Of a stretch of 64,000 nucleotides of DNA, positions 14,476 to 36,947 are shown piece by piece. The stretch's first letter is position 1; each line of letters begins with the position of its first letter. Source of the stretch: Trypanosoma brucei (lineage: Eukaryota); the NCBI GenBank assembly GCA_000002445.1, contig CP000067.1, positions 768,001 to 832,000 of the forward strand, given 5' to 3'. The notes beneath the pieces were generated by a model that made no database searches, was not told the DNA's origin, and saw only the letters and a program-made list of their open reading frames with translations. Both the position numbers and the translations under genes were made by a program.

Positions 14476-17352
14476 ATGTCGTTACATGGTCATCCGTACC
14501 AACGCTACGTCTCCGTGAAGCTGACACATTTCCAACAGGGGGATGAAAATGACGGACCTACGAAGAGCGGTGGCGTGGAGTCGGGTAGTAATAGGGAGAA
14601 GTGGCGAGCGTTTGGTGTTGATATAGGAGTCAACCTGGCTTCAGCCACGTCTCAGAGCTCATGCACAAGCAGCTCCACGCAGTCGCAGATGGTAAACGAT
14701 GCTTCAATCACCAAAACGGCGAGTGTCCAGGAGTCGCTTCGTCAGCAGTTGGCGGTGTTGACGTCGCGTGTCGGACAAACAAGAGAACAAATATTCAACG
14801 CAGTGCGTTTAAAAGAGAAGACAAGCAGCAAAAGCACAAGCAATACATGTACACCTAGCTCCGTAACAACGGACACAGAAATTATTGGTGGTGGTTCTGC
14901 TCCCCCCTCGCAAAAGCGGGTTCCCGGTAAGGACGGCTTATCCAGAGACAGCGCGAAGAACAAGCGATCAACTACAAGTGACAACAATATTGTTTTGAAC
15001 AAGGGGGCGGGAAGCACCGCAACCCATCAGCAGCAAGAAGCAGGGCAACAAATATCTGAAAAGAAGACGAAAACGAGGGCCCGTAAGTCCTCCACATTAT
15101 CTAATGCTGAAGCAACGGTAACGTCGCGGCACTCAAGTAAATGTGCAACTCAGAGGACATTGTTCAAATTGCCTGTGGACCCTGCAACGTCTCCGCAGCG
15201 TGGGCTGCAGGTGGCATTCAAGGAAGAGTTGGATGGTAGCGCATTGTTCAATGATGCACGCGATACCCTCAACGACCCTAATCGTTTCCAGGTACCCACG
15301 ATATTTGTTGGCTTTGCAACGCGCGAAGGGCAGACGAACTTCACCATTTCCTCCTCTTCGCGCGGAAAAGTGCACTTCATGCGCGGCGTTAACCCTGAGT
15401 TAAGCCATCTCGAGGTGAGTTTCCTCGTCGTACGGTGGAAAGACGATGTAATTGTCTACTCTGCGGCTGTTGGTTTGGAGTTACTTGTGCGAGTTGCTGA
15501 AGAACTTCCGGGTGTTGAAATTGTTACATTCAACGCCCCCTGCCTCTTGCTTCCACTGTTGTCCTACAAACAGGGTAAGTTCTTTACCTCGTGCGTGTCT
15601 GATGTCCGCCTCATGACGTGGATGCTTGAGCCATCAGCGGACACAGCCGAGTTTGCGGACTATGACAAGCTCCTTCAATCGTACCAGCAGCAAATAGGGC
15701 TCCCGGCAGGGCTCAACGCCGCGGAATGCAAAGGCAGTAAAGAGGCCGTTAGCCACCGCGTGTTTTACATGGAGCCGCTCTACCGAATGCTCTACGGTAG
15801 GCTGGGATCTCATGGATTGTTACCAGCCTTTCTCAAGCAGGAGAAGCGCATCTCCATCATGTGTGCGGCGATGAAACTGAACGGCTTTTACGTGAATTTG
15901 GTGGAGGTGGACGGTTTCAAGGCGCGCTGCGCAGAAAAAATGGAGAAGCTGCGAAGTGAGGCTCGCAGTATGATCCCCTCTATGACGAACTTTAACATAC
16001 AGAGCGCAGACGACTGCAGGGTTGCGCTGTATGAGGTGCTGAAGCTCGGCCCAAACCTTGTGTCGAAGGGCACTGAAGGGTCCACAGAGAACAATTCCCT
16101 CATATTAACGAGAGGTGGTAAGTTGTCTACGTCAGAAGAAACCCTGAGGATTCTAGCACGGCACCACGAGTTCCCACGCATATTAATCGCGTATCGGAAG
16201 TTGGCGAAGCTTTTACAAACGTACGTCGTTGGATTTATGGAGATGGCGATTCCCATTGAAGAAGGTGATGGAGAATTCACAGACTTCAGCATCAGTGAAC
16301 AAGGCAAGGAAGCAATACCGAACGCATCCGACCGTCACAAAGCGAAGTGGGCGAAACTGCACCCCAATTTGGTGCAGGAAGGTACCGAAACGGGGCGGCT
16401 GACATCTGTGGAGCCCAACATGCAGGCCCTACCGCGGTCCACGCAACTTGTAGCAACCCACGAGAAAAATAACACTAACGATGCCGACTCTGAAAATGGC
16501 AACAACGAAAACATCAACGGTGATGTTAACGCTGCCGATGCTGGAGGAAACGAGAGCGATGGCCCCGTGCAAGAGAAGGAGGTGAGTTTCATACGCCGCT
16601 GTTTAGGGGCGCCCGACGGGTATTCGTTGGTCTCGCTGGACTATGAACAGGTAGAGCTACGAGTGTTGGCACATCTATCGGGCGATTCAGCTCTTATCAA
16701 TGTTCTCACGAAATCTGGAGACATCCACCGCTCGATTGCTGAGATTATATTCCGCAAAACAAGCGTTACCGGCGAAGAACGGAGCCTTGCCAAAAAAGTG
16801 GTGTTCGGTATACTCTACGGTGCGGGACCGCGCGGACTGGCGCAACAAATGGGCGTGTCTGTGGAGCAGGCGCTGCGTGTGTCTTCACTCTTTAAATCAT
16901 GTTTTCCCACCGTTGACGCGTACCAGCGGCGCATCATTGATCAGTGTCGAAGTGACGGTTCCGTGCGAACGCTGAGCGGCCGGGTCCGATCTATACCTGA
17001 CATAAACGATCGCGTGCTTACGAAACGCTCCCATGCGGAACGTCAGGCCTTCAACACCGTCGTGCAGGGAAGTGCCGCGGATGTGATGAAGTTGGGCATG
17101 ATCGCCGTGGAGCGTGAGGTGCTGCAACCCCATGCACCTGACGTTCGGTTGCTCCTACAGGTTCATGATGAAATTATCTTATCCGTCCCCAACCACATGC
17201 TCCACAGCATCGTGCCGGCTGCAATGCATGCCTTCGCACATCCTATTTCACTGCTGGTGCCGCTGCTTGTCACAACAAAAGTCGGGCGGCTGTTAGGTGA
17301 TTTGGAGGAATGGACAGTGGATCATGCACTAGGACTGCGGGTGCCGAGTTGA
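14476..17352 (+). CDS. Family A DNA polymerase (Pol I / Pol theta-like polymerase domain, exonuclease motifs absent); candidate kinetoplastid POLIA-type or Pol-theta polymerase-only protein
   Basis: ATG at 14476. Family-A motifs are read directly: RLTSVEPNMQALPRS (pre-motif A); motif A LVSLDYEQVELRVLAHLSGD; O-helix region RSLAKKVVFGILYGAGPRGLAQQMG; motif C LLQVHDEIILSVP; also FNTVVQGSAADVMK. No DxE 3'-5' exonuclease motif appears in the N-terminal half. A low-complexity Asn/Asp-rich insert of about 45 aa sits between NMQALP and motif A (nt ~16450-16581). Confidence 0.9.
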   Translation: MSLHGHPYQRYVSVKLTHFQQGDENDGPTKSGGVESGSNREKWRAFGVDIGVNLASATSQSSCTSSSTQSQMVNDASITKTASVQESLRQQLAVLTSRVGQTREQIFNAVRLKEKTSSKSTSNTCTPSSVTTDTEIIGGGSAPPSQKRVPGKDGLSRDSAKNKRSTTSDNNIVLNKGAGSTATHQQQEAGQQISEKKTKTRARKSSTLSNAEATVTSRHSSKCATQRTLFKLPVDPATSPQRGLQVAFKEELDGSALFNDARDTLNDPNRFQVPTIFVGFATREGQTNFTISSSSRGKVHFMRGVNPELSHLEVSFLVVRWKDDVIVYSAAVGLELLVRVAEELPGVEIVTFNAPCLLLPLLSYKQGKFFTSCVSDVRLMTWMLEPSADTAEFADYDKLLQSYQQQIGLPAGLNAAECKGSKEAVSHRVFYMEPLYRMLYGRLGSHGLLPAFLKQEKRISIMCAAMKLNGFYVNLVEVDGFKARCAEKMEKLRSEARSMIPSMTNFNIQSADDCRVALYEVLKLGPNLVSKGTEGSTENNSLILTRGGKLSTSEETLRILARHHEFPRILIAYRKLAKLLQTYVVGFMEMAIPIEEGDGEFTDFSISEQGKEAIPNASDRHKAKWAKLHPNLVQEGTETGRLTSVEPNMQALPRSTQLVATHEKNNTNDADSENGNNENINGDVNAADAGGNESDGPVQEKEVSFIRRCLGAPDGYSLVSLDYEQVELRVLAHLSGDSALINVLTKSGDIHRSIAEIIFRKTSVTGEERSLAKKVVFGILYGAGPRGLAQQMGVSVEQALRVSSLFKSCFPTVDAYQRRIIDQCRSDGSVRTLSGRVRSIPDINDRVLTKRSHAERQAFNTVVQGSAADVMKLGMIAVEREVLQPHAPDVRLLLQVHDEIILSVPNHMLHSIVPAAMHAFAHPISLLVPLLVTTKVGRLLGDLEEWTVDHALGLRVPS

Positions 17353-19925: not shown

Positions 19926-20012
19926 CCCTTCCTTCCTTCAAAAATAATAATAATAATAATAAATCATTTCTCCTCTTTGACCCTTAACCCAATAATGTGA
20001 ATCACTCAATAG
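19926..20012 (+). promoter_or_regulatory. polypyrimidine tracts flanking an (AAT)n microsatellite, ending in AG: candidate trans-splice acceptor for the J-domain gene
   Basis: ccttccttccttc ... tcatttctcctctttgacccttaaccc ... caatag, directly upstream of ATG 20021. Confidence 0.4.
19943..19964. repeat. (AAT)7 microsatellite
   Basis: aataataataataataataaat. Confidence 0.85.
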
Positions 20013-20020
20013 CGTGTGGC

Positions 20021-21028
20021 ATGACAACATATGGTCACCGTCCTGAACACATGTTGCACGCATGGCGTACATTAGGCCTCCGCGCGAATCCCACATACGA
20101 GGAGATACGCGCTGCTTACCGTAGACTTGCTTTCGCCACTCACCCCGATCGCTCAAATGAGCCTGGCACGAAGGAACGTTTCCAAAAGTTGCAAGCGGCT
20201 TACGAAGCAGCAGTGGAGAATTGCAGACGTATGGCAGCCTTAGGAGGGTACAGGCTTAGTGGTGATGCTGCAAACTTTGACTGGCGGGCTGAGGTTGCTC
20301 GTGTGCGGGAAGCGTGGGCGCGGAAACACGGTTTAGGGTCAGATGCTGCGGAAGAAGAGGAAGAGGAAACCACGGCAAGAAAAAAAAGGCAGCAGACTAA
20401 AACAGCAGCGAAAGGAACAAAAACGGCAAAGCCGGCGTCGGCGTCGGCGTCGGCGGCACCGGATTTCTCCGGAACAAACTCCCCCACCCCAGCGAGGGGC
20501 CGCAAGAAGGCCTCACCACGAAACAGCAGGCGACAACAGAAACGTGGGAGCGCGACGACTTCACGCTGGTCGAAGCCTGTTGCAAACAAAAAGGGTAAGC
20601 CGAAACCGCCCTTTACTCTCTTTTCTTCGCCACGTAGTCCCCCGCCACCCGCAAGCAGAGGTGCTGATGGAGTGGCGGGAGAAAATAAGTCGTTAAACAC
20701 CTCTCGAGCGGGTTCCCCCGGCGCCACAACATCGCACACATCAGAGAGGCGCGCACAAGTCGTGAGGAGGCGCCGTCGCTGTTTCCTGTCAAATGAGGAC
20801 AAAATGATTTGCCGTCTAATGGCGGTTGAGGCAGCGCGGCGCTTAGCGTTGTACGTTTTTGAAGGGGCAACACGACGAATCATATCACAAATGCTCGCAG
20901 AAGTGCGAATTCGCTGTGCTATAAAGCAATTTGAGGATCTGGCATGGAAAAAATTAGTCAAATACGTGCAGCTTGGACCTAGCGACGCCCTTGTGCGTCA
21001 CAAGGGTAAGCGGCGAATTGTGGCATAG
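20021..21028 (+). CDS. DnaJ / J-domain protein (J domain at the N-terminus, then a basic Lys/Arg/Ser/Pro-rich region)
   Basis: The ORF-track start at 19997 is a GTG; the first ATG is at 20021, after polypyrimidine tract 19926-19990 and an AG at 20011. The J-domain signature with an HPD motif is read directly: WRTLGLRANPTYEEIRAAYRRLAFATHPDRSNEPGTKERFQKLQAAYEAA. Confidence 0.8.
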   Translation: MTTYGHRPEHMLHAWRTLGLRANPTYEEIRAAYRRLAFATHPDRSNEPGTKERFQKLQAAYEAAVENCRRMAALGGYRLSGDAANFDWRAEVARVREAWARKHGLGSDAAEEEEEETTARKKRQQTKTAAKGTKTAKPASASASAAPDFSGTNSPTPARGRKKASPRNSRRQQKRGSATTSRWSKPVANKKGKPKPPFTLFSSPRSPPPPASRGADGVAGENKSLNTSRAGSPGATTSHTSERRAQVVRRRRRCFLSNEDKMICRLMAVEAARRLALYVFEGATRRIISQMLAEVRIRCAIKQFEDLAWKKLVKYVQLGPSDALVRHKGKRRIVA

Positions 21029-23218: not shown

Positions 23219-26200
23219 ATGTCTCTTTCCCTGGGTTGTAGGGATGATTCACTAACTCCTGTTCCAAGAAGCTCTGGGGAGACTGCAAGTAATGTGTACA
23301 CAGTTGAGCAGTACACAAAACTTCTTTCCAAATACGAGGCGGCTCGGCGTCACATTGCTCAACTAGAGGGAAAGGTGGCATTACTACGGCAACAGTCAAA
23401 TAGTGGGGGTGATAAACAACCTCTCTCACCCAGGTCACAAGGCTACGGATGTGGGACGGAATACACTCCATCTAGGGAGGAGTTTCAGCAAGTAATAGAT
23501 TGGAACAAGGAACTTGTCAGTACCGTGGAGACGCAACGGTGTGAATTGGTGAGAATGGATACCGAAAATAAATTGCAGGTGGTTATGTTGAACGATGAGC
23601 TGAAGAGGCTGCAGGAGACGTGTGCTCGGCTTCAGCAGGAGAATGACAGACTGAAGTCAAGTGTTGTTGACGACATTCTTCAACGGCGTCGCAAAGCTCG
23701 CGCGGAGCTGGCAACAGAAAGGTCCAGACGCATTTGTGTTGTCCGGGCTGCCGGTAGAGGCCGACTGGAGCAGCTTGAAGGGGTACTGATGGCGTCGCAT
23801 GACGACATGTATTTCCAACCTCGCTTCGACTCGTTAAGGCTACCGTTGCATGATGCAACTTTCGTCGTTCACACTGTGGCCAGTGTAACGTATCCCCTCC
23901 GAGGGACAGAGGGTTTTACCATGGGTGTGTACCATGAACTTTTGAAGGACCTCGCGGTGAAGCACAACGGCCATCACGTTTGCTTCGAAGGACACCTTCA
24001 GGTGTTTGTCTTTTATTGTGCAACTCACGCCCTGAGGTTTGCGGGGGAGTGTCACTCGGCCCTTCTGAAAGTTGACTGGCCAGCGCGCACAATAAAGATC
24101 CCTCACTTTGCACCCGTCACGGACTTTGGTGAATTGATTTACAGTGGCCCACGCATTCACACGTGCCTGTACACGTGCAGCCCGGGGGTGGAAGTAGATC
24201 CAATCACTGGCTCCTGGTTGTACTACGGAAAGGAAGTTCGTGATGCGTTGGTGACAACGCTTGAGGAAGCACCAGTCGGCGAAATTGTAGCCAACAAAAA
24301 GTGGTGTTCAATGTTCTCGAGGGAGCACGACATCACAAACGAGACGACCACCACGGATCATCTAACTATTCAATCCGTCCGAGCAAAATTAGGCGCCCAG
24401 TGGAGTATCGTGCCCGTAAACGATTCTCCCAATGAACTTTTCTGTTCCATTCTTCCCGCGTTCCTGGAACGGCGCCGCGGAATACCGCCGTACATGGTTG
24501 ACCCAGTACCTCGTTTTGCGCGTAAAATAATAGATGTGAAGGAAGTTGTGCCTGACGTCATCGGGGTAATGAAGGGAGTCGGGCCCGTGAGTTTGGCAGG
24601 GGCTACTCAGCAGGGACAACAACCCGCACCCGCCAATGGTTGGGTGGATCATCTCAACACCTTGTCCCCTAGTGAAGAGGGAGTAGGTGATAAGGTGCTC
24701 TCACTACTAATAATGAAGAACGAAAAGGATAGGGCTCAGCACGAGTGGCTTAAACTCCAGGAAGTAAGTGCCTATCATGAAAGAGTTGCCATGGAGGGAG
24801 AAGATCGATACATCCATCGATTTCGGCCGATTATGCCGGGGCAACCTTGTTTCGTATGCACGGTTGATATTGGCGAAAACGAGGCGTGGCAACAAGTCAT
24901 TGGTGGAAAGCTAAGTGTTAATGAAAAGCTTGACTTACATGACCGGCTTCACTGTGAGGTAGTGGCGTGCGGAGATAGAAACGACGGACTCTACGTGAAT
25001 GGAAACAGTCGCGATGTGGTGACATTTGCATTTCACCAGGCATGTCAGGCCCTTCGCTTCGCAGCCCAGGCGTATGCGTCTGTGAGCAAGTCGTGTGAAC
25101 TAAAGAAAACAACAACGTGTATTGTACGGGCAGGAATCGCCGTGGGAGAGATTCATACGATAGGTCATGGTTCCAGTAGGGCATTGAAGGGCCGCACCAG
25201 TGATGATGGTGAAGCCGGTAACACTGGATCAGGAGGAAGGATGGGCAGCATGAGGTTATGCGCGGGGGTGGCAGTGACCCTGTCAGCCAAGTTGTGCGAT
25301 ATTGCCCGCGGCGGTGAAATTATTGCCTCGGCAGGTGTAGTAGACAGCTTCTACACGAAAAAGTCTAACGTCATAAGTGATGAATACAACATTCTACGCT
25401 ACGGAGTGCGATTTCTCGGAGAGGGCTCAACCCTGACAGATATCTACTCTATTTTGCCCAAGGAATATGCCTACCGTCGCCAACAGCAAATGGGTGACAA
25501 ACGCACGGTTCAGGGTGCTGGTGAGGAAAAAATGTGGCGCTCACAACGATCCGTGAAGGAAGAGCTGGTGTTTAAAAGCCCGCACATCCGGCGGGTGGAT
25601 GTACAGCACATGTTAGTGGAAAAGCAGGGTTTTCTCGAACGCAACGAGGCAGCAATGATGGCGTTGCACGATGCGGCATGGCACGTCAGCGTCAGGCAGG
25701 CAATCCGTGTGCCATGGTTGTTTACGCAAACATCAAGAGATGCTACGAAAAAGAGAAAATTGGGCTTTCTTTTCTGCGCCGCTGCGGGTCTAAGCGCACT
25801 CTCCCGCTTAGTAACAAATGAGTTGTATAAAGAACTCTGTGGGCAGTATAACTCTACGGTGCAGGAGGTCGCATTGGCAAATGATGGATATGTTGTCAAC
25901 ACAGACTCCATTTCGTCGTATATCATTGCGTTCAATGATGCTTTCCGTGCGCTGGAAGCTGCACTGCAGATTGATAGTAAGTTGCTGGCGCTACAGTGGC
26001 CGGAGGAGATTCTTACACTGGCACCGACGCTGCGCGTAAAAAGTGCTCGCACAGGCGTTCTTCTCTTTAGTGGAATTCGTGCAACGACGGTGGTGCATGC
26101 TTCTGACGGATACGAGTGGAATCGTGTACAATCTAGCACAGGGGAAGACAGTGGTATTGAAATTTCTGGCCCCGCAATCAGCACGTTGATGGACGTGTCA

Positions 26201-27088
26201 TACAGAGCAATTGGTGGTGAAGCTGCTCTAACTCAGGCTGCACACGAGTCTGTTGAGTCCTCGACACGGGGAAGGCTTCTTCTGAAGCAACTCGCCATGG
26301 AGGTGGCTGAAGATAACAACAGCAAGACAGAAGTCTTATACGCCCCGCGACACTTGCGGGAGCGGCTCAAACTGTTTAGCAGCGAACGAGCCACTTCACC
26401 GGCGCCGGCAGGGACCGACCGTAGGTCCAAAACCCCAAAAAGTGTCTGGACAAACAATCCTTTGCGGGGGGACTTGGTGTGGTGGATGAGAAGGAACGGT
26501 TTTGCTAGCCAGCTTCCCACAGTGCATGCAGCGCAGTGGGCAGCACCGCAAAAGCAACAATGTAGGAGCACTGATGCCATCATGTCAGAATATACAGAGC
26601 GAGTAGTCGATCACTTCAAACAGGAACTAGCAACAAACCTCTACATCACCTCTTGCGGAGAGTGTTTCTTCAACGTGGTAATTGGAGTGCTTGTTGCACT
26701 AAGCGGCTCTTTTGGAAACCTCTCGCCCAGTCGAAGAACAAGTCTCCCATCCAGAGCAAGCTCATCCGGGGCGTGTGCGTCATCACCATCAACCTGGGGT
26801 GTGCTGGATCCAGCGCTCACAATGAGTATGGGAAGTGAAGGATTATCAAGATCTAGTGGACGAAGGGACAATCGCCAATCGTCCCAGCAAAGCGCCGCAG
26901 ACGAATGTGATGACCCTTATAAGTACACGCTTACCGTGTTAAATGAGACACTGAAGCACCTATTACAGCAGTCACATCGTGTATTGGGCATTAACGTGTC
27001 ATTTTCTTTTAGCCCGATAAAACCGAACTCTCAAACCTTCAGTCCTTTGAGGGGTCGAAGGAATAAATTGCCCTTACTCAAGCGATAA
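23219..27088 (+). CDS. Large protein (1289 aa) with two degenerate class-III nucleotidyl-cyclase homology domains (pseudo-cyclase-like), no predicted TM or extracellular receptor domain
   Basis: ATG at 23219. The first CHD-like segment is DATFVVHTVASVTYPLRGTEGFTMGVYHELLKDLAVKHNGHHVCFEGHLQVFVFYCATHALRFAGECHSAL, which parallels the Hxx...KTIGDAYM...HA...A...M pattern but with substituted metal/catalytic positions. The second is TCIVRAGIAVGEIHTIGHG...MRLCAGVAVTLSAKLCDIARGGEIIAS, which parallels VRIGIHSGPVVAGVIG...YDVWGDTVNTASRMES.G.PG.I.VS with N->L and R->K at transition-state positions. An N-terminal coiled coil spans residues about 20-150. Confidence 0.6.
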   Translation: MSLSLGCRDDSLTPVPRSSGETASNVYTVEQYTKLLSKYEAARRHIAQLEGKVALLRQQSNSGGDKQPLSPRSQGYGCGTEYTPSREEFQQVIDWNKELVSTVETQRCELVRMDTENKLQVVMLNDELKRLQETCARLQQENDRLKSSVVDDILQRRRKARAELATERSRRICVVRAAGRGRLEQLEGVLMASHDDMYFQPRFDSLRLPLHDATFVVHTVASVTYPLRGTEGFTMGVYHELLKDLAVKHNGHHVCFEGHLQVFVFYCATHALRFAGECHSALLKVDWPARTIKIPHFAPVTDFGELIYSGPRIHTCLYTCSPGVEVDPITGSWLYYGKEVRDALVTTLEEAPVGEIVANKKWCSMFSREHDITNETTTTDHLTIQSVRAKLGAQWSIVPVNDSPNELFCSILPAFLERRRGIPPYMVDPVPRFARKIIDVKEVVPDVIGVMKGVGPVSLAGATQQGQQPAPANGWVDHLNTLSPSEEGVGDKVLSLLIMKNEKDRAQHEWLKLQEVSAYHERVAMEGEDRYIHRFRPIMPGQPCFVCTVDIGENEAWQQVIGGKLSVNEKLDLHDRLHCEVVACGDRNDGLYVNGNSRDVVTFAFHQACQALRFAAQAYASVSKSCELKKTTTCIVRAGIAVGEIHTIGHGSSRALKGRTSDDGEAGNTGSGGRMGSMRLCAGVAVTLSAKLCDIARGGEIIASAGVVDSFYTKKSNVISDEYNILRYGVRFLGEGSTLTDIYSILPKEYAYRRQQQMGDKRTVQGAGEEKMWRSQRSVKEELVFKSPHIRRVDVQHMLVEKQGFLERNEAAMMALHDAAWHVSVRQAIRVPWLFTQTSRDATKKRKLGFLFCAAAGLSALSRLVTNELYKELCGQYNSTVQEVALANDGYVVNTDSISSYIIAFNDAFRALEAALQIDSKLLALQWPEEILTLAPTLRVKSARTGVLLFSGIRATTVVHASDGYEWNRVQSSTGEDSGIEISGPAISTLMDVSYRAIGGEAALTQAAHESVESSTRGRLLLKQLAMEVAEDNNSKTEVLYAPRHLRERLKLFSSERATSPAPAGTDRRSKTPKSVWTNNPLRGDLVWWMRRNGFASQLPTVHAAQWAAPQKQQCRSTDAIMSEYTERVVDHFKQELATNLYITSCGECFFNVVIGVLVALSGSFGNLSPSRRTSLPSRASSSGACASSPSTWGVLDPALTMSMGSEGLSRSSGRRDNRQSSQQSAADECDDPYKYTLTVLNETLKHLLQQSHRVLGINVSFSFSPIKPNSQTFSPLRGRRNKLPLLKR

Positions 27089-27638
27089 GTAGAGAGGCGA
27101 ACCGAGAGGGAAGGAAATTCGCACGCATGGGTGCCCAACACCCGTCTGAGTAAATATCAGTGCGCTACTGACGTTGTTGTCACGTATGGTTAATGCGTCG
27201 GTGATACGAGTAGGTGCACGCAGCCGATGAACAGCGGGCAGAACATATGTAAATTCGGCAAAAGAAGAAAATGTGAGTGGAAAGTTAGAACAAACTGACT
27301 AGATGGAAAGGGAGGGGGAGAGTGTATCCGTATGTATATTGAATAGCCGGTGTGTATGTGACTCCCCTTCCTGTTCTTCACAAGCTTGAGAGACTCATTT
27401 TTCCCACATATACAATTGGAATTGTACATGTTTTGTCGTCAGGCCGCTTCTTGTAGTGTAAAAAAACTGTTACTCGGAACTCGTGCTTGCAGCCGATGCC
27501 ATATCAACTAACATTCCTCTCTTCTTGATTTGCCTTCTCAATTTCCTTGATTATCTTGGATGTGTTTACTGACTGATCGTAGTAGGGCCTAAATCAGTTC
27601 TGTTGAAGGCAGTTGCCCCTACACACTGCCACACCCAC

Positions 27639-28943
27639 ATGGACAGCCAAGCACGGGCGGGAAAGAGTATTCTCCACAAAGGAATCCCGAGGTACCGGCA
27701 GGCCGCACATGTGAGGCGCGGGGATGAGGAAGCCTTAGGTCATGTGGCTGGCTCTGGCGCCAAGGTACCATTGCGCACTCACACGATAACCTCAGGTCGG
27801 TTGCGGATCAAGACGTACCAAGACACTCAAAGCATGCGTGAGGCTTTTGAGCGACTGAAACAAATCTGTGGTGCCTTCTCACTCGACGAAGATGAAGAAA
27901 TCAGCTGCATGATCCCCCGAGTGTGCGATAGTGGCAACCCAGCGCCGGCGCAGTTGAACCGCATGCCGGGCCATCTCATTGTACACTGTTTTTCGTTTTG
28001 TGATTTGTCGTCGCTTGGACAGCTATCACGCGTGAGTCGCCGCCTGGCAGCGTTCGCCAACGCTCATCATATATGGGTGGAGCACGCGAAGCGGTTGAAC
28101 AAACCAGTCAGAGGACCAGAAACAGCACGCGCCGATCTCCGCTTTGAGGTGTGTGGCCGGTGGGATGCGGAAATACAAGAACACGAACAGGCATATGAGG
28201 ATTTGCAGAGGCGGCTCCAGGAAAGGGCAGCAGCAGAGCGAGCCGCTGTGCTCGATGTCGAGGGTGTTCTGAACGAAAACAGACGCAATGTAAGAGGTGG
28301 TGATATACTCCGCAGTAGAGGTAGCAACAATAGCAACATATATAGCGTGGCGGACGTGCAGGCGCTACAAGCAAAAGTAGAGCAACTTGAGGCGGTGAAG
28401 CTAGAACTTCTACGCAGCGTGCGGGACCTTGGAGATATTTTGGCCCAACAGCAGGCACAGATACAAGACATGCAAAATAGGCTAGCGGTCCGCGTGACTG
28501 CGGAGGGAGATGTAGTTACCACCACAAGTAGTTGCAACACGGTCGATGGAACCGCAACTCATGTCAGTCCCCCTGAGTTAACGTTGCACGAACTTACGAA
28601 CTTCGAACGCCGCATGTGCCGTTTGGTCCTTGGCACCATCCCCGATCTCTCCGTCGTTCTGCGTCGCGGTGTTGATGACTTCGGTACTATGGAGATGCTC
28701 GTGCAGCACAGCGGCGGTGAGCTGGAGAGCGGAATTCGTAAGCGCTGGCAAGCGTTTAAGAGTTTCTTCCCTCCGCTGTCCAACGACTACAGCAAAGCGC
28801 GGTTTTATTTGTTGTCAGGCGAGTCGGCGCAATCGGAACGCAGGAATGAGTCTATCACTCGTTGTAGCGCAATCGTTCGCCGCCTGATGAAAATGTCAGA
28901 CAGCGAAATCACCGATATTGTGATGCAAAGCGGCTCTTCGTAG
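27639..28943 (+). CDS. hypothetical protein with an F-box-like motif followed by a coiled coil (about 434 aa)
   Basis: The ORF-track start at 27603 is a TTG; the first ATG at 27639 follows polypyrimidine tract 27514-27560. The F-box-like segment is GHLIVHCFSFCDLSSLGQLSRVSRRLAAFANAHHIWVEHAKRL. A coiled-coil region follows (EQHEQAYEDLQRRLQERAAAERAAV...VEQLEAVKLELLRSVRDLGDIL). Confidence 0.5.
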   Translation: MDSQARAGKSILHKGIPRYRQAAHVRRGDEEALGHVAGSGAKVPLRTHTITSGRLRIKTYQDTQSMREAFERLKQICGAFSLDEDEEISCMIPRVCDSGNPAPAQLNRMPGHLIVHCFSFCDLSSLGQLSRVSRRLAAFANAHHIWVEHAKRLNKPVRGPETARADLRFEVCGRWDAEIQEHEQAYEDLQRRLQERAAAERAAVLDVEGVLNENRRNVRGGDILRSRGSNNSNIYSVADVQALQAKVEQLEAVKLELLRSVRDLGDILAQQQAQIQDMQNRLAVRVTAEGDVVTTTSSCNTVDGTATHVSPPELTLHELTNFERRMCRLVLGTIPDLSVVLRRGVDDFGTMEMLVQHSGGELESGIRKRWQAFKSFFPPLSNDYSKARFYLLSGESAQSERRNESITRCSAIVRRLMKMSDSEITDIVMQSGSS

Positions 28944-30556: not shown

Positions 30557-33500
30557 ATGTTCACACGCGCTCTCAGTAATGCCGCGCGTGTCGTGGCGGT
30601 CGCTGCACGGCAAGGTTTCTCACATAGTCTGACTGTGAGCAGTGCTTCTCTTCAGTTTCAACTGAGAGCCCGCGCAGACATCAGAAGGAGGTACCGTAGC
30701 CGTGAAGGGAACCCACAACTCGGCAATAGCGGCGGCGCTGATGTGGGTAGCATGCCGCTCAACTTCGCTGTCATACCAGTCTCGCGAATAAATATGCGTA
30801 TGGAGTCGCAGCTTGAGTCATTCCTGAAGAAGCAGGAGAAAGAAACACTGGAGCTGGGCACGTCAGCAGAGTCTCCTAAGATACGCCTACTGAACGTGCC
30901 CCGAACAACATTGAAGCGCGCCGTGTTGGACTTCAACGTCCGCGGTCAACAAGTGCGTGCAGTCGGTCAGTCAAGGCGAGGGAAGGTGGCAAAGGCGTTG
31001 TGCTGCATGCACGCCGCGATGCTCATCGATCACTTCTCAATCGATGGCGTCGGGTGCCACGACATGCCTCTGCCGCTGGAAGAAGAGGGCGTGTCGTCCG
31101 TCCCATCAAATGCCGCGCAGACCCCACACCACAAGCACGCACAGGGCTCGCCACTTTCTACCACGTTAAAATTACCGCCGCCATGGGCACCGGGCATGCA
31201 GTGGGAAAGGTATGTGAGTGATTGCGAGAATTACATTCGACGCAGGGAACAGCAGGAGCGAACAGACGCATACGTACAATTGCGCGTCCCACGGAGTGGG
31301 AACCCCCTTGTCGACCGCGCGGCTGACATGACAAAGGGTGAGAAGAACATTAATCACCTGGCTTTACAGAGATTGAACAATGAGATACGAAACGCAACGA
31401 AGGATATTCATATAACTCGGGTGTCACGACGTATCTTTGTCGCAACGCTTCTCCTGGATGATACGTCGCAACTAAGTGCCACGGGCGTCGCAACATCCCT
31501 GAAAGAGGCCAAACAACGGTGTGCGATGCATGCCTTGAACATTCTCAAACTCGTAAAAGATCAGCGGTTGGCTTCTTCCCCTCTAGCTTCGGTGTGTCGC
31601 GAGGGCTCCTCCACGAGCGCCATCTCCTCGAGCCTCAGCCCGCGATACTCAAAGATGTTAGATTTTTTTACACTTCTTTGTGGCGTAAAGCCCAAACCGA
31701 GCTTTACAAGGGACGGAAGAGGCTACAAGTGTGAGTTGCTACTGGATGATGTGACCAGTACCGGCCGGGGAGTCAATCGATTCGAGGCTGAACGTGATGC
31801 AATCGAACATGCACTAAGTGAGATGGAGCTGTATGACGAACGACTGCAAGCAATTAATAGTATCATCTCTCGTTACCCAAAAATACAGCCGCAGTGCGTT
31901 CCCTCGGCAAAACTTCCAGAAAGCCTGAGGAACGCCATCCATGCGTTGGTGCAGCGGGTCCACAAGGAACTCCACCTTGCAGATGACGGGACCACACTAA
32001 CCGGGAGCAAGGCCTCTTCCAGTAAAGATGAGAACAAAAGTGATGATACAGATGATGTGGTAGACGCGGAGACGCGCGCCACAATCAATGCACTACAAGA
32101 AATAAGTCGTGACGAAGCCTACGCGAATCGATTGCGGGACCGGTTGTGCACCTTGCGAGCCGATCCAAAGTACCTTGAGCGGTACCATGCACGGCGGTCA
32201 TCGCTCTCAATTAATGCCGTGTCGCAGAGCATCTTAAATGAGCTCCAACAGAACCGCGTCGTCGTAGTGTGTGGTACCACAGGCTGCGGGAAGACGACAC
32301 AAGTGCCACAATATATTCTTGATGCAGAAATAATGGCTGGTCGCGGCGACCAGTGTTGCATCGTCGTTACGCAACCGCGGCGATTGAGTGCATTTAGTGT
32401 TGCGGAACGAATCGCCAGTGAGCGCCTGTCAGCCGTGGGTGGCGACGTTGGATACGCCGTGCGATTGGACGCACGTCCTGGCCGTCACGTTACGCTATGC
32501 ACAACAGGTGTTTTGCTGCAGATGTTGGTTGGCATGCCATCGCTTGATGCGGTAAGTCACTTAGTCATTGATGAAGTGCATGAACGCGACATTAATTGTG
32601 ACGTGCTCCTCGCTCTAGTTAAAGATCTCATGGAAAGTGGGGGGAACCCACGCCTGAAGGTTGTTCTCATGAGCGCGACAATGCAGTCTGATATGTTCGC
32701 ATCTTACTTTGGCAGGGCGCCTGTGATCAGTGTGGAAGGCGCCACATACCCGGTGGAAGTGCGGTACCTTGATGATGTGGCTGCCCTTCTCCAGAAACAA
32801 ACCAACCCCAGAAATGCCTACTACAGTACCATGTTTGACTCTCTAACTGCGGCTCGGGGGGCCGGTGAAGTCGGAAGAAGAGGAAAGGGGGCGGCCAACA
32901 GAGGCAGATCGGGTTTTGGCGCAAAGAAGCAGTTGCTCAGTTCTCCACTGAAAACAGACTATAGCCTCATTGCGCAGCTTGTTCGCCGAAGCGTCGAAGT
33001 GGACCTCAACAACGACGTTTTCGGTAAGTCTGTTCTTGTCTTCCTTCCCGGCTGGAAGGAGCTAGTGGCGGCAAAACAAGCCATCGAGGGTCTTGGGGAC
33101 GGCCAACGGTACCATATAATACTTCTCCATTCATGTGTTGATGCGGCGAAGCAACGCGAATGCTTTGCGCCAGCGCCCGTAGGAAAGGTAAAGGTGGTTC
33201 TTGCCACCAACATTGCCGAGAGTGGCATCACAATTGATGATGCAGCAGTTGTTATCGATACTGGACTGATTAAACAAACCACGTGGGTCTCGCGTGTCTC
33301 CGGGCTCCAGCAGCAGGGAAGGGAGCTTGGCATCCTTGCAGCACCCATGTCAACAACATACGCCACGCAGCTGTCGCTGCGGTATGCAAGTCAGGCGAAC
33401 TGCACTCAGAGAAAGGGACGGGCGGGGCGGACACAGGGAGGAGTTTGCTACCGGCTGTTCGTGCGTGACGTATGGGATGTGCTACCGGCTTTCCAAGAGG

Positions 33501-34879
33501 CAGAAATTCATCGTGTGCCTCTGACGCAAGTGTTGCTTAAACTCCTAGCTCTTGGTCACGACAGGCCGAAGGAAAAACTTCGCACGTTTATTGAGCCTCC
33601 ATCCGAGAAAAATGTGGAGGACTCCATGCGCCAGCTGCAGAGCCTCGGTGCGGTGTCTGCCGACGAACGGCTCACGCCCCTTGGCCTCTACTTGTCACGA
33701 CTTCCCTGCGAACCGACGGTAGCGAAGATGATTATGATGGGCGCTGTCCTCCGCTGCCTTGACTCTGCATTGACGATGGCTGCAACGGGCGACGTGAATC
33801 CGTTCCTTTCAAGCCGTGATATGTCCTTTGAGGTGAGGGTCCGGCGGCGTGTGTTTGCAATGGGGTCGCAGAGCGACCATATTAGCGTATTGAATGCGTA
33901 TAATGCGTACAGTGCACGGCGTGCCGACGCCGGCTTCGCCAAGGAAAACTTTCTGAGCGCAAACAATATGAGGCTTATCTCCCGGTATAAGCAACAGTAT
34001 CGCGATATTCTTCAGCGTTCAGGATTTATTCGCGACACAGAACTAAACTCTCCACAGTTCACAAGCGAATGTGGGAGTTTTGGTGGAGATGGTTCTCACG
34101 TTTTGTACTTCGACGATGGACCGCTTTCAGCTGACGCCACAGATGTGTCGCTAGTGAAGGCTTGTCTGTGTGCAGCACTTTTTCCGAATGTGGCTGTTCT
34201 TGACCCGACACCGCTGCTCCAGCAACAGGGGAAAAAGGCGAAAACGTTGGTGATGCGCACTTCAACACGCTCCGCTATTTCACCATCAAAGGATAGTGCG
34301 TGTCGCCGTACAGGCTCACCGCAAGCACATACCTGTTCCACACCACAAGATTTATTCAGCCCGCACAACGATGAGCACATGGATCTTCCCTCTATGTTGT
34401 ATATTTATCAGGGTATTTTTTCGTTGAAGGAGTCTCGAGAAGAGTTTCTAACCCAAGTTTCCTCCGTTAGCCTTTGGGCGCTGCTTCTCTTTGGTGTTGG
34501 AGAGGCTGACATGCACTACGACAACCAGGTGCAACTGTGCGTCGTGGGAAACTGGATTGGCATTCATATGGACTCCGAGTCATACAAGGCCCTTGTTGCG
34601 ATTCGTACCATTTTGCACGCGTGTGTGTGGCGCAAGTACAAGCACCCGGAGGATCCCGGAAATAATCGAGCGCTCGAGGAACTCCACCGCATTTGCAAGG
34701 GTATTTTGAAGTCACCACCGAACGATAAGGAACAATACCTGAATAATCTCGTGGACACGGGAAGGATTTTCTCTCCAATGGAAGTGCAGCAGCTAACCGA
34801 TGATGTCAAAATGGAGAGACTCAATGGGGAACAAGATGACGACGGCAACAGAGACGTATGGGAGTTACACGAGGTGTGA
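30557..34879 (+). CDS. DEAH/RHA-family (DHX9-like) ATP-dependent RNA helicase with two N-terminal dsRBD-like domains and a mitochondrial-presequence-like N-terminus (REH2-like architecture)
   Basis: ATG at 30557. Helicase motifs are read directly: motif I VVVVCGTTGCGKTTQVPQYIL; Ia VVTQPRRLSAFSVAERIA; II HLVIDEVHERD; III SATMQSD; IV-like LVFLPGWKEL; V VVLATNIAESGITIDDAAVVIDTGL; VI QRKGRAGRTQGGVCYRLF. The dsRBD-like segments are ...VGQSRRGKVAKALCCMHAAMLIDHF and ...SATGVATSLKEAKQRCAMHALNILKLV. The N-terminus MFTRALSNAARVVAVAARQGFSHSLTV is Arg/Ala/Ser-rich with no acidic residues. Confidence 0.9.
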   Translation: MFTRALSNAARVVAVAARQGFSHSLTVSSASLQFQLRARADIRRRYRSREGNPQLGNSGGADVGSMPLNFAVIPVSRINMRMESQLESFLKKQEKETLELGTSAESPKIRLLNVPRTTLKRAVLDFNVRGQQVRAVGQSRRGKVAKALCCMHAAMLIDHFSIDGVGCHDMPLPLEEEGVSSVPSNAAQTPHHKHAQGSPLSTTLKLPPPWAPGMQWERYVSDCENYIRRREQQERTDAYVQLRVPRSGNPLVDRAADMTKGEKNINHLALQRLNNEIRNATKDIHITRVSRRIFVATLLLDDTSQLSATGVATSLKEAKQRCAMHALNILKLVKDQRLASSPLASVCREGSSTSAISSSLSPRYSKMLDFFTLLCGVKPKPSFTRDGRGYKCELLLDDVTSTGRGVNRFEAERDAIEHALSEMELYDERLQAINSIISRYPKIQPQCVPSAKLPESLRNAIHALVQRVHKELHLADDGTTLTGSKASSSKDENKSDDTDDVVDAETRATINALQEISRDEAYANRLRDRLCTLRADPKYLERYHARRSSLSINAVSQSILNELQQNRVVVVCGTTGCGKTTQVPQYILDAEIMAGRGDQCCIVVTQPRRLSAFSVAERIASERLSAVGGDVGYAVRLDARPGRHVTLCTTGVLLQMLVGMPSLDAVSHLVIDEVHERDINCDVLLALVKDLMESGGNPRLKVVLMSATMQSDMFASYFGRAPVISVEGATYPVEVRYLDDVAALLQKQTNPRNAYYSTMFDSLTAARGAGEVGRRGKGAANRGRSGFGAKKQLLSSPLKTDYSLIAQLVRRSVEVDLNNDVFGKSVLVFLPGWKELVAAKQAIEGLGDGQRYHIILLHSCVDAAKQRECFAPAPVGKVKVVLATNIAESGITIDDAAVVIDTGLIKQTTWVSRVSGLQQQGRELGILAAPMSTTYATQLSLRYASQANCTQRKGRAGRTQGGVCYRLFVRDVWDVLPAFQEAEIHRVPLTQVLLKLLALGHDRPKEKLRTFIEPPSEKNVEDSMRQLQSLGAVSADERLTPLGLYLSRLPCEPTVAKMIMMGAVLRCLDSALTMAATGDVNPFLSSRDMSFEVRVRRRVFAMGSQSDHISVLNAYNAYSARRADAGFAKENFLSANNMRLISRYKQQYRDILQRSGFIRDTELNSPQFTSECGSFGGDGSHVLYFDDGPLSADATDVSLVKACLCAALFPNVAVLDPTPLLQQQGKKAKTLVMRTSTRSAISPSKDSACRRTGSPQAHTCSTPQDLFSPHNDEHMDLPSMLYIYQGIFSLKESREEFLTQVSSVSLWALLLFGVGEADMHYDNQVQLCVVGNWIGIHMDSESYKALVAIRTILHACVWRKYKHPEDPGNNRALEELHRICKGILKSPPNDKEQYLNNLVDTGRIFSPMEVQQLTDDVKMERLNGEQDDDGNRDVWELHEV

Positions 34880-36730: not shown

Positions 36731-36920
36731 GACCTTTCCTGTCGTTAAGAAAGGGAGGTGTCAAAAAAAAAAACAAAAAGGGGGGATTTAAACTGGACCC
36801 TCGTGTACAGATGGATGTTTTGTTCCCGTCTGGAGGAGGGAAAAGAAATGAGGATCCCTGGAGAAAGATGAAGTTGGAATCGGGTTGTCAACACCTGTTG
36901 CGAGTTTATTCTTCCCTCAA

Positions 36921-36947
36921 ATATATGTATATATATATATATATATA
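36921..36947. repeat. (TA)n microsatellite
   Basis: atatatgtatatatatatatatatata, intergenic, flanked by poly-A (36762-36772) and poly-T (36956-36970). Confidence 0.85.

What the first reader, a model, noticed from the sequence alone, without database searches (positions are those of the whole stretch)
23219..27088. Soluble 1289-aa protein with two degenerate class-III cyclase homology domains (pseudo-cyclase architecture), unlike the receptor-type adenylate cyclases typical of trypanosomes
Two segments, nt ~23850-24090 and ~25014-25355, carry the recognisable backbone of adenylyl/guanylyl-cyclase catalytic domains. In the first, FEGHLQVFVF parallels KTIGDAYM. In the second, IVRAGIAVGEIHTIGHG parallels VRIGIHSG.VVAGVIG, and GVAVTLSAKLCDIARGGEIIAS parallels GDTVNTASRMES.G.PG.I.VS. 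The canonical metal-binding Asp and transition-state Asn/Arg positions are substituted (H, L, K). Known trypanosome cyclases (ESAG4/GRESAG4) are single-pass receptor-type proteins with one catalytic domain. This protein has no TM, a leading coiled coil and tandem pseudo-catalytic domains, which suggests a heterodimer-mimicking regulatory or scaffold protein rather than an enzyme.
Basis: partly seen in the sequence, partly recalled or inferred. Interest (0 to 1): 0.55.

Follow-up and report, generated by a model that had tools for sequence, protein, structure and literature searches.

The report
Trypanosome cytosolic triple pseudo-cyclase protein
This Trypanosoma brucei gene encodes a soluble protein made of a coiled coil followed by three (not two) badly eroded copies of the adenylate-cyclase catalytic domain, only one of which keeps a metal/phosphate-binding half-site, so it is most likely a non-catalytic relative of the parasite's cAMP-making enzymes that has escaped the published cyclase inventories.

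Summary
The ORF (23219-27088, +, 1289 aa) is real and identical to T. brucei Q583X6, probably Tb927.4.2990. Pfam PF00211 finds nothing in it or in 11 orthologues, yet the cyclase homology holds. A profile of the orthologues reaches many PF00211-positive proteins. Profile-profile comparison with Pfam-validated cyclase domains gives 99.3% (D1, aa ~205-417), 95.4% (D2, ~540-750) and 99.75% (D3, ~845-1050). An AlphaFold model (pLDDT 74) hits only class III cyclases in PDB (TM up to 0.85).

D1 has lost all seven catalytic residues. D2 keeps both metal Asp and the phosphate Arg (19/19, 17/19, 19/19 sequences). D3 is nearly intact in distant environmental relatives, half-eroded in T. cruzi and fully eroded in T. 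brucei. No domain supplies the transition-state Asn/Arg, so cyclase activity is unlikely.

An intramolecular C1:C2-like dimer is plausible for D2:D3 but not shown. Databases already auto-label orthologues "nucleotide cyclase, putative". No searchable paper describes the protein. Moderate interest.

The parts
23219..27088 (+). Complete ORF, 1289 aa, identical to T. brucei TREU927 XP_844449.1 / UniProt Q583X6 (probably Tb927.4.2990)
   Evidence: Gene ID inferred from neighbours POLIA = Tb927.4.2950 and F-box Tb927.4.3000.
23282..23788 (+). N-terminal coiled-coil region (aa ~22-190). Heptad-significant core aa ~97-158 (nt 23507-23692). The helix runs into D1.
   Evidence: Sub-threshold Pfam hits to coiled-coil families in all orthologues; heptad score above 99.9% of shuffles only here; helix aa 181-198 in the model.
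23831..24469 (+). D1: cyclase-homology domain 1 (aa ~205-417). All seven catalytic positions are substituted (T219, C255, H259, H314, L334, R341, V345). Invariant R312/H314/C316/C320.
   Evidence: hhalign vs validated CHDs 99.3%, E 1.7e-20. D1 HMM hits PF00211 coordinates of P0136, P0057 and P0030. CHD HMM 53 bits. Residue map. pLDDT 85-95.
24683..24820 (+). Long predicted helix (aa ~489-534) immediately preceding D2
   Evidence: DSSP of model 2, H310-355 of the construct, pLDDT ~55-70. No significant heptad signal.
24836..25468 (+). D2: cyclase-homology domain 2 (aa ~540-750), the most divergent. It retains a C1-type half-site: metal Asp550 (nt 24866-24868), metal Asp599 (nt 25013-25015) and phosphate Arg637 (nt 25127-25129). 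It lacks Lys/Asp base recognition and Asn/Arg (N594, L680, T687, K691). It has a low-complexity insertion at aa ~650-678.
   Evidence: hhalign vs validated CHDs 95.4%, E 1.9e-8, 176 columns. Internal repeat D2-D3 E 1e-3. Residue conservation 19/19, 17/19, 19/19. pLDDT 70-89.
25592..25681 (+). Long predicted helix (aa ~792-821) preceding D3
   Evidence: DSSP of model 2, H613-642 of the construct, low to moderate pLDDT.
25751..26368 (+). In T. brucei none of the seven catalytic positions keeps its canonical residue (A854, N894, I898, T956, E981, S988, D992; E981 is a conservative Asp-to-Glu change). It is partly retained in T. cruzi (DKTREEE) and nearly intact in distant relatives (DKERD[A/T]R).
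   Evidence: PDB profile hit to Ma1120. hhalign 99.75%, E 2.9e-27. D3 HMM hits PF00211 coordinates at iE down to 3e-19 with Z=1.8e9. Residue maps. pLDDT 85-95.
26369..27085 (+). C-terminal tail (aa 1051-1289), poorly conserved and low-complexity, with conserved 'WW' and 'LP' motifs and a T. brucei-specific hydrophobic stretch at aa 1143-1161 (nt 26645-26701). Not modelled.
   Evidence: Alignment A1; hydropathy.

Best explanation
The gene encodes a cytosolic pseudo-cyclase made of a dimerising coiled coil followed by three class III cyclase-homology domains (CHDs). These derive from the same euglenozoan CHD lineage as the trypanosome receptor cyclases.

Shown: all three domains are CHD homologues with the CHD fold. 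In T. brucei, D1 and D3 have lost every canonical catalytic residue. D2 has kept only the 'C1-type' half of an active site (two metal-binding Asp plus the phosphate-binding Arg), invariant or nearly so across trypanosomatids and more distant relatives. No domain provides the base-recognising Lys/Asp or the transition-state Asn/Arg.

Inferred: the protein therefore cannot make cAMP by itself at any meaningful rate. D2 still binds a divalent metal and the phosphates of a nucleotide at an interface with a second CHD. That partner is most likely D3, which carries the complementary residues in distant relatives, in the way mammalian C1 pairs with C2. The coiled coil would bring two chains, and probably the two D1 domains, together. 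The protein would then act as a nucleotide-binding regulatory or scaffolding module of cAMP/ATP signalling rather than as an enzyme. It would be a decayed descendant of an active soluble multi-CHD cyclase of the kind still found in diplonemids.
For: Homology: a profile of the trypanosome orthologues finds 1079 proteins at E<=1e-3. Sampled hits carry PF00211 above the gathering score at the matched coordinates. hhalign against 9 Pfam-validated CHDs gives D1 99.3% (E 1.7e-20), D2 95.4% (E 1.9e-8) and D3 99.75% (E 2.9e-27). The internal repeats are collinear.

Fold: the AF2 model has mean pLDDT 74.4. The 50 best Foldseek PDB hits are all class III cyclases, with Rv1900c CHD at TMt 0.85 and rmsd 2.8 A and GRESAG4.1 at TMt 0.70. 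The first, weaker model gave the same answer.

Catalytic map: it is the same under three alignment modes, holds on a 19-sequence alignment and was checked with an independent hmmalign. The reference motifs were confirmed against GRESAG4.1/4.3. D2 Asp550 is 19/19, Asp599 is D/E in 17/19 and Arg637 is 19/19. D3 decays progressively: DKERD(A/T)R in distant relatives, DKTREEE in T. cruzi, and none of the canonical residues in T. brucei (only a conservative Glu at the base-Asp position).

Context: arrays that mix intact and degenerate CHDs behind an N-terminal coiled coil are the norm in relatives, e.g. Namystynia P0030 with five CHDs. Solubility rests. Orthologues occur in Trypanosoma, Leishmania and Phytomonas.
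Against: No biochemical, localisation or phenotype data could be found. PF00211 itself does not match. D2 is the weakest domain: 95% by hhalign and only 8 bits with the CHD HMM. The AF2 model does not show any canonical CHD:CHD dimer (pTM 0.38; sAC and AC9 superpose at rmsd ~25 A), so the D2:D3 pairing rests on residue complementarity in relatives only. The residue aligned to metal Asp2 in D3 differs between MAFFT and hmmalign. Strict conservation of a metal/phosphate site could also mean residual or different catalysis. UniProt auto-names the protein 'Adenylyl cyclase'.
Confidence: 0.6

Rival explanations
1. It is a working, unconventional or low-activity, soluble adenylyl cyclase, as the automatic UniProt names ('Adenylyl cyclase', 'ATP pyrophosphate-lyase', 'Nucleotide cyclase, putative') imply. 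D2 would supply the metal site and another domain would supply non-canonical substitutes for the missing residues.
For: D2's Asp/Asp/Arg triad is conserved in 17-19 of 19 homologues. D3 of distant relatives is nearly intact (DKERD[A/T]R). In non-Trypanosoma orthologues basic residues (K/R) appear at D2 positions 680 and 687.
Against: In T. brucei no domain has the base-specifying Lys/Asp or the transition-state Asn/Arg. In established class III mechanisms both halves are required. The decay of D3 from T. cruzi to T. brucei suggests relaxed selection on catalysis. The database names are automatic and no experiment was found.
Confidence: 0.12
2. It regulates receptor cyclases in trans. D2's C1-type half-site (or D1/D3 as inert partners) would heterodimerise with the catalytic domain of ESAG4/GRESAG4 receptor cyclases, which are active only as dimers, and so tune or poison their activity.
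For: The CHD lineage these domains belong to has GRESAG4.3 and 4.1 as its closest solved relatives (E 1.9e-27 and 5.6e-26) and shares the 'LL..WP' insertion. Pseudo-subunits pairing with active CHDs is an established principle for C1:C2 and sGC alpha:beta (general knowledge).
Against: There is no evidence of co-localisation or interaction. The protein has three CHDs of its own plus a coiled coil, which is enough for self-contained pairing. Receptor cyclases are flagellar-membrane proteins, whereas this protein has no membrane anchor.
Confidence: 0.15
3. The CHD scaffolds have been re-used for a different chemistry or ligand, for example a structural or sensory Zn/metal site in D1 built from the invariant His314/Cys316/Cys320 (plus H279), unrelated to nucleotides.
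For: H314, C316 and C320 are invariant in 13/13 orthologues and sit exactly where the active-site strand (canonical 'RxGxxxG') lies. D1 is as well conserved as D3 despite total loss of the catalytic residues.
Against: This is purely a sequence pattern. The residues are not invariant in the six distant relatives. No coordinates were available to test the geometry.
Confidence: 0.07
4. The cyclase resemblance is a chance similarity and the protein has an unrelated fold.
For: No PF00211 hit at E<=10. Single-sequence PDB search empty.
Against: See: transitive profile hits at E down to 1e-67, hhalign 95-99.7%, and all of the top 50 structural hits are class III cyclases.
Confidence: 0.01

Closest known systems
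Trypanosome receptor-type adenylate cyclases (ESAG4/GRESAG4; catalytic domains solved as PDB 1FX2, 1FX4)
   Same: Same CHD lineage. Pfam-validated CHDs that the D1 and D3 profiles hit have GRESAG4.3/4.1 as best PDB match (E 1.9e-27 and 5.6e-26). They share the insertion after helix alpha2 ('LL..WP..'). Foldseek TMt is 0.70.
   Different: Receptor cyclases have a signal peptide, a large extracellular domain, one TM and one intact CHD. This protein has no conserved TM, a coiled coil, three CHDs and no complete catalytic set. It was not picked up by the 2020 census of trypanosomatid cyclases, which used BLAST at E<=1e-20 from a receptor cyclase (PMC7719234).
Tandem-CHD pseudo-heterodimeric cyclases: mammalian membrane AC C1:C2 and soluble AC (ADCY10; e.g. 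PDB 4CLF, 7PDD)
   Same: Several CHDs on one chain. One domain (here D2) keeps only the metal-Asp pair and phosphate Arg, like C1. Foldseek aligns two of the domains collinearly with sAC and AC9 (~575 columns, E 1e-11 to 1e-9).
   Different: The C2-type partner residues (Lys, Asp, Asn, Arg) are absent from every domain in T. brucei. There are three domains rather than two. The canonical dimer geometry is not reproduced in the model (rmsd ~25 A).
Euglenozoan and other protist soluble multi-CHD cyclases (e.g. Namystynia karyoxenos P0030, Diplonema papillatum KAJ9448846.1 'Adenylate cyclase', Hemistasia P0032)
   Same: N-terminal coiled coil followed by an array of CHDs of the same subfamily. Intact and degenerate CHDs are mixed within one chain. 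These are the nearest PF00211-positive relatives of D1 and D3.
   Different: Those proteins have 2-5 CHDs, most with the full DKDRDNR set, and strong PF00211 scores (E 1e-100). The trypanosomatid protein has exactly three, none complete, and no PF00211 score.
Class III adenylyl cyclase-like ATP-binding protein of Pseudomonas aeruginosa (PDB 6YII)
   Same: A CHD-fold, two-domain protein described by its depositors as ATP-binding rather than as a cyclase. It is a precedent for a nucleotide-binding pseudo-cyclase and appears among the Foldseek hits (E 2.6e-8).
   Different: It is bacterial and has a different architecture. The relationship is at fold level only (12% identity), and I could not read the primary paper.
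Leishmania oxygen-sensing soluble adenylate cyclase (OAC/HemAC, LmjF.28.0090)
   Same: A non-receptor, soluble trypanosomatid CHD protein (PMC7719234).
   Different: The OAC has a globin sensor plus one active CHD and has been lost from trypanosomes (abstract). The present protein is found in Trypanosoma, Leishmania and Phytomonas and has no globin domain.

Membership tests
Class III nucleotidyl cyclase catalytic domain (CHD; Pfam PF00211 Guanylate_cyc) | Match to the PF00211 profile at or above the gathering score (21.9 bits) | tested here: not met
   No hit at E<=10 in the T. brucei protein or 4 Trypanosoma orthologues, and none at E<=1 in 7 further orthologues.
Class III nucleotidyl cyclase catalytic domain (CHD; Pfam PF00211 Guanylate_cyc) | Demonstrable sequence homology to bona fide CHDs (profile-profile or transitive) | tested here: met
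   hhalign vs 9 PF00211-validated CHDs: D1 99.3%/1.7e-20, D2 95.4%/1.9e-8, D3 99.75%/2.9e-27. D1 and D3 HMMs hit the PF00211 coordinates of P0136, P0057, P0090 and P0030 at iE 1e-8 to 3e-19 with Z=1.8e9.
Class III nucleotidyl cyclase catalytic domain (CHD; Pfam PF00211 Guanylate_cyc) | CHD fold (beta-alpha-beta-beta-alpha-beta core) | tested here: met
   AF2 model pLDDT 74.4, domain cores 70-95. The top 50 Foldseek PDB hits are all class III cyclases, with TMt up to 0.85 and rmsd 2.8 A. Per-domain structural matches could not be separated, so the fold of D2 specifically rests on its secondary-structure order plus the two-domain collinear alignments.
Class III nucleotidyl cyclase catalytic domain (CHD; Pfam PF00211 Guanylate_cyc) | Two metal-binding Asp (beta1 'FxDxxxxT' and beta2-beta3 'GD') | tested here: inconclusive
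   Met in D2 only (D550 19/19; D599 D/E 17/19). Not met in D1 (T219, H259) or in T. brucei D3 (A854, I898).
Class III nucleotidyl cyclase catalytic domain (CHD; Pfam PF00211 Guanylate_cyc) | Base-specifying Lys/Asp (AC) or Glu/Cys (GC) pair | tested here: not met
   T. brucei has C255/L334 (D1), N594/L680 (D2) and N894/E981 (D3). The Lys is retained in D3 of 8/13 orthologues and in distant relatives.
Class III nucleotidyl cyclase catalytic domain (CHD; Pfam PF00211 Guanylate_cyc) | Transition-state Asn and Arg ('VNxAxR') | tested here: not met
   R341/V345 (D1), T687/K691 (D2), S988/D992 (D3). Asn is absent from D2 and D3 in all 19 sequences; in D1 an Asn occurs there only in two distant relatives. 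The Arg is kept only in D3 of distant relatives.
Class III nucleotidyl cyclase catalytic domain (CHD; Pfam PF00211 Guanylate_cyc) | Head-to-tail CHD dimer forming the active site at the interface | tested here: inconclusive
   The model's pTM is 0.38. Two-domain cyclases superpose at rmsd ~25 A and TMt ~0.3. No coordinates or PAE were available and no multimer prediction was possible.
Class III nucleotidyl cyclase catalytic domain (CHD; Pfam PF00211 Guanylate_cyc) | Conversion of ATP/GTP to cAMP/cGMP | not testable with these tools
   Needs an enzyme assay. No published assay was found.
Trypanosomatid receptor adenylate cyclases (RAC; ESAG4/GRESAG4) | Single transmembrane helix with a large extracellular periplasmic-binding-protein-like domain | tested here: not met
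   No conserved hydrophobic segment (orthologue max KD19 <=1.64). No Pfam domain other than sub-threshold matches to coiled-coil families.
Trypanosomatid receptor adenylate cyclases (RAC; ESAG4/GRESAG4) | One catalytically complete CHD | tested here: not met
   Three CHDs, none complete.
Tandem C1:C2 pseudo-heterodimeric cyclases (tmAC, sAC) | Complementary half-sites: one domain with the Asp pair, the other with Lys/Asp/Asn/Arg | tested here: not met
   The C1-type half is present (D2). The C2-type half is absent in T. brucei and largely present (Lys, Asp, both Arg, not Asn) in D3 of six distant three-domain relatives.
Euglenozoan soluble coiled-coil multi-CHD proteins (no curated family; defined here by the profile search) | N-terminal coiled coil followed by two or more CHDs of the 'LL..WP' subfamily, without TM | tested here: met
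   coiled coil; insertion shared by D1, D3 and the reference CHDs; relatives with 2-5 CHDs.

The most novel reading that the evidence does not exclude
The invariant C1-type half-site of D2 is a working metal-nucleotide pocket that is completed in trans by the catalytic domain of a receptor adenylate cyclase, or else senses ATP/Mg on its own. Either way this conserved cytosolic protein would be a previously unrecognised regulator that couples the many trypanosome receptor cyclases to the cell interior, a missing component of the unusual trypanosomatid cAMP pathway.
Probability: 0.12. Interest if true: 0.8.

Novelty: new variant of a known kind. Interest (0 to 1): 0.42.

Why it matters
Trypanosomes have dozens of receptor adenylate cyclases but very few recognised downstream or regulatory components, and the published cyclase inventories list only receptor-type and oxygen-sensing enzymes. 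This pan-trypanosomatid cytosolic protein carries three eroded cyclase domains, one of which has kept a metal/phosphate half-site under strict conservation. It would add a third, non-catalytic class to that inventory and give a concrete, testable candidate for nucleotide sensing or cyclase regulation. It also shows stepwise enzyme-to-pseudoenzyme decay: nearly intact in environmental relatives, half-eroded in T. cruzi, fully eroded in T. brucei. Finally it illustrates that the general Pfam model misses the whole clade. The practical value is limited until localisation, binding and knock-out data exist, and automatic database names already hint at the cyclase relationship.

Tried and rejected
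The following led nowhere or were rejected.
- Single-sequence Pfam and PDB sequence searches found only sub-threshold matches to coiled-coil families.
- Scanning each of 12 orthologues against Pfam gave no PF00211 hit.
- A second word-indexed homologue search with the profile returned only the same five proteins.
- The first AF2 model, from 5 sequences, had pLDDT 49.5. It was used only as a preliminary and was superseded by the 19-sequence model.
- I tested for a canonical intramolecular C1:C2 dimer by looking for a low-rmsd superposition on sAC or AC9. None was found, but the test is not decisive at pTM 0.38.
- A transmembrane reading of aa 1143-1161 was rejected because the hydrophobicity is not conserved.
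- Literature searches by gene ID, UniProt/GenBank accessions and key words found no paper on this protein.
- Gene neighbourhood is uninformative: the region is a same-strand polycistronic unit of unrelated genes.
- No tRNA or Rfam family occurs in the window.
- The long helices before D2 and D3 do not show significant heptad periodicity, so I do not claim they are coiled coils.

Full report
**1. What is at the coordinates**

The protein is 100% identical to T. brucei TREU927 XP_844449.1 / AAZ10890.1 / UniProt Q583X6 and to the T. equiperdum copy. GenBank calls it 'hypothetical protein, conserved', while UniProt/UniRef auto-names it 'Adenylyl cyclase'.

All large ORFs of the window lie on the + strand, as in a trypanosome polycistronic unit. 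Upstream is a family-A DNA polymerase (14476-17352) that I take to be POLIA, whose published ID is Tb927.4.2950 (PMC10719067). Downstream is an F-box protein (27603-28943), which matches Tb927.4.3000 as listed among F-box proteins in PMC12816148. The target is therefore probably Tb927.4.2990. That ID is inferred, not verified.

**2.

PF00211 does not match the protein at E<=10, nor four Trypanosoma orthologues, nor seven further orthologues at E<=1. The only hits are sub-threshold matches to coiled-coil families at aa ~22-176. A single-sequence search of PDB sequences is empty.

A profile of five orthologues puts the class III cyclase Ma1120 first among PDB sequences.

An exhaustive HMMER search of 1.84 billion representatives with the aa 180-1060 profile gave 1079 hits at E<=1e-3 and 185 at E<=1e-10. 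The first ~10 are full-length orthologues. The rest are mostly long proteins matched in several stretches. Of 19 sampled hits, 14 carry PF00211 above its gathering score, most at the coordinates that the trypanosome profile matches. Examples are P0136 (PF00211 38-195), P0057 (18-209), P0090 and P0026 (1237-1400).

Separate HMMs for the three regions were built from 13 orthologues, and E-values were scaled to the whole library. D1 hits P0136 38-196 at 9e-12 and D3 hits P0136 35-200 at 3e-19. D2 hits only the equivalent middle domain of more distant three-domain relatives.

Profile-profile comparison with an alignment of nine Pfam-validated CHDs settles it:

| Domain | Probability | E-value | Aligned columns |
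|---|---|---|---|
| D1 | 99.3% | 1.7e-20 | 159 |
| D2 | 95.4% | 1.9e-8 | 176 |
| D3 | 99.75% | 2.9e-27 | 177 |

The three regions also match each other collinearly: D1-D3 E 3e-5, D2-D3 1e-3, D1-D2 2.6e-3. Each ends in the same 'SILP..RR' motif, 'VPR..R' in D3.

**3. Fold**

A first AF2 model from five sequences was poor (pLDDT 49.5), yet it already hit only cyclases. With 19 sequences the model reaches mean pLDDT 74.4, with D1 and D3 cores at 85-95 and D2 at 70-89.

All 50 best Foldseek matches in PDB are class III nucleotidyl cyclases, and 180 matches have E<=1e-3. Single CHDs reach TMt 0.85 at rmsd 2.8 A (Rv1900c) and 0.70 (T. brucei GRESAG4.1).

Two-domain cyclases (human sAC, AC9 C1-C2) align over ~575 columns but at rmsd ~25 A and TMt ~0.3. 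At least two domains are therefore recognised collinearly, but the model does not pack them as a canonical dimer. With pTM 0.38 this neither supports nor excludes an intramolecular dimer.

**4. Anatomy**

- Coiled coil at aa ~22-190. Heptad periodicity is significant only at aa ~97-158.
- D1 at aa ~205-417.
- A linker with a long helix at aa ~489-534.
- D2 at aa ~540-750, with a low-complexity insertion at ~650-678.
- A linker with a helix at aa ~792-821.
- D3 at aa ~845-1050.
- A poorly conserved tail.

There is no conserved TM. The hydrophobic stretch at aa 1143-1161 (KD 1.92) is peculiar to T. brucei and carries charges in every orthologue.

**5. Catalytic residues**

Six of the nine reference CHDs carry the full canonical set D-K-D-R-D-N-R. 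Their alignment to GRESAG4.1/4.3 confirms the motif assignment: FTDIESST, EVKTVGD, RVRVGIHTG, YDYYG..NMAAR. Mapping by hhalign in three modes, on the 19-sequence alignment and by hmmalign gives:

| Domain | T. brucei residues at the seven positions | Conservation |
|---|---|---|
| D1 | T219, C255, H259, H314, L334, R341, V345 | All seven lost, with no canonical residue at these positions in any sequence apart from an Arg (PPi position, one distant relative) and an Asn (two distant relatives). H314, C316 and C320 are invariant in 13/13 orthologues. |
| D2 | D550, N594, D599, R637, L680, T687, K691 | Metal Asp1 19/19, metal Asp2 D/E 17/19, phosphate Arg 19/19. The other four are absent. This is the residue pattern of a mammalian C1 domain. 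|
| D3 | A854, N894, I898, T956, E981, S988, D992 | None of the seven canonical residues is retained in T. brucei (E981 is a conservative Asp-to-Glu change). T. cruzi reads DKTREEE. The six distant three-domain relatives read D-K/R/H-E-R-D-(A/T/D)-R, close to a complete site. |

One caveat: the residue at Asp2 of D3 depends on the alignment method.

D3 therefore decayed stepwise within trypanosomatids, furthest in the salivarian species. In T. brucei no domain supplies the base-recognising Lys/Asp or the transition-state Asn/Arg.

Its statement that the metal Asp are substituted does not hold for D2.

**6. Relatives and evolution**

Full-length orthologues exist in:
- T. congolense, T. cruzi, T. 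melophagium and T. rangeli;
- Leishmania (Viannia) species, where UniRef names them 'Nucleotide cyclase, putative' or 'Adenylyl cyclase';
- Phytomonas.

Six more distant three-domain relatives come from environmental assemblies of unknown taxon. One is labelled 'class 3 adenylate cyclase'.

Beyond them lie soluble multi-CHD proteins of diplonemids (Namystynia, Hemistasia, Diplonema 'Adenylate cyclase') and other protists (Fabomonas, Lagenidium). Among 369 CHDs in 160 retrieved proteins, 81 are complete, 69 C1-like, 17 C2-like and 202 degenerate. The diplonemid-type proteins have an N-terminal coiled coil and five CHDs in the order full-degenerate-full-full-full.

The closest solved relatives of this CHD lineage are the T. 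brucei receptor cyclases themselves. The trypanosomatid protein is thus a decayed member of a euglenozoan soluble multi-CHD cyclase family, paralogous to the receptor cyclases.

**7. Mechanism**

*Shown:* three CHD-homologous domains, a coiled coil, no TM, an incomplete catalytic set, and one strictly conserved C1-type half-site.

*Inferred:*
- The protein lacks cyclase activity.
- D2 binds metal and the nucleotide phosphates at an interface with another CHD.
- D3 is the most likely partner, because it carries the complementary residues in distant relatives.
- The coiled coil dimerises the chain and probably pairs D1 with D1.

The role would be regulatory, sensing or scaffolding.

*Rivals:* residual or unconventional cyclase activity, trans-pairing with receptor cyclases, or a re-purposed metal site in D1. 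None of these can be excluded without experiments.

**8. Novelty**

Automatic database names already flag a cyclase relationship. Pseudo-cyclases and tandem-CHD proteins are known in general, for example C1:C2, sAC and the P. aeruginosa ATP-binding CHD protein 6YII, which appears among the structural hits.

No paper in the searchable library mentions the gene or its accessions. The 2020 census of trypanosomatid cyclases covers only receptor and oxygen-sensing classes, and its BLAST cut-off of 1e-20 would have missed this protein (PMC7719234).

I rate it a new variant of a known kind, of moderate interest. The architecture and the selective retention of one half-site are worth testing, but the function is unknown.

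Noticed in passing
window 24158-24178 (aa 314-320 of the protein, within D1): The strand that carries the phosphate-binding Arg in real cyclases reads 'PRIHTCxYTC' in D1. His314, Cys316 and Cys320 (and Arg312) are invariant in 13/13 trypanosomatid orthologues and His279 in 12/13. This is a possible Zn/metal site replacing the lost active site.
   Followed up: partly
window 26645-26701 (aa 1143-1161): A hydrophobic stretch (KD19 = 1.92, 'ITSCGECFFNVVIGVLVAL') would pass a naive TM threshold. It is hydrophobic only in T. brucei; all orthologues have charged residues there.
   Followed up: yes
window 1-64000: The window is T. brucei-group chromosome 4. All ORFs of at least 250 aa but one lie on the + strand, consistent with a single polycistronic unit. 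Neighbours: OsmC-like protein (10410-11438), mitochondrial DNA polymerase POLIA Tb927.4.2950 (14476-17352), DnaJ protein (19997-21028), F-box protein Tb927.4.3000 (27603-28943), DExH helicase with a dsRNA-binding motif (30557-34879). Start codons listed by the ORF tool follow the bacterial code, so the GTG/TTG starts of the neighbours are not the real ones.
   Followed up: partly
window 36700-44400: An ORF-poor stretch with the lowest GC of the window (0.40-0.45). It contains an (AT)n run at 38430-38499, a small Cys-rich ORF with a signal-peptide-like N-terminus and a hydrophobic segment (37015-37638), and an Arg-rich 148-aa ORF (42076-42522). No tRNA or Rfam family occurs anywhere in the window.
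   Followed up: partly
related proteins P0148 and P0039 (from the search): Among relatives of the CHD lineage, P0148 fuses a CHD (36-195) to a protein kinase domain (304-496). The oomycete Lagenidium protein P0039 (2472 aa) carries four CHDs that all have the same 'C1-like' signature D-(T/A)-D-R-T-V-E. It is an array of half-sites with no complementary partner in the same chain.
   Followed up: no
window 23282-23746 (aa 22-176): The best Pfam hit of the protein is ATG16 (E 1.3e-5, 25.9 bits, below the 33.7-bit cut-off). The precomputed annotation in the protein database lists PF08614 for it. This looks like generic coiled-coil similarity rather than an autophagy link, because the orthologues hit other coiled-coil families (TSC22, DivIC, YabA, bZIP) instead.
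   Followed up: partly
D1 and D3 (window ~24080-24110 and ~25990-26020) and reference CHDs: D1, D3, the diplonemid CHDs and GRESAG4 share an insertion after helix alpha2 with a conserved 'LL..(D)WP..L' motif. D2 lacks it. It may correspond to the trypanosome-specific sub-domain seen in the GRESAG4 crystal structures (from memory, not checked).
   Followed up: no
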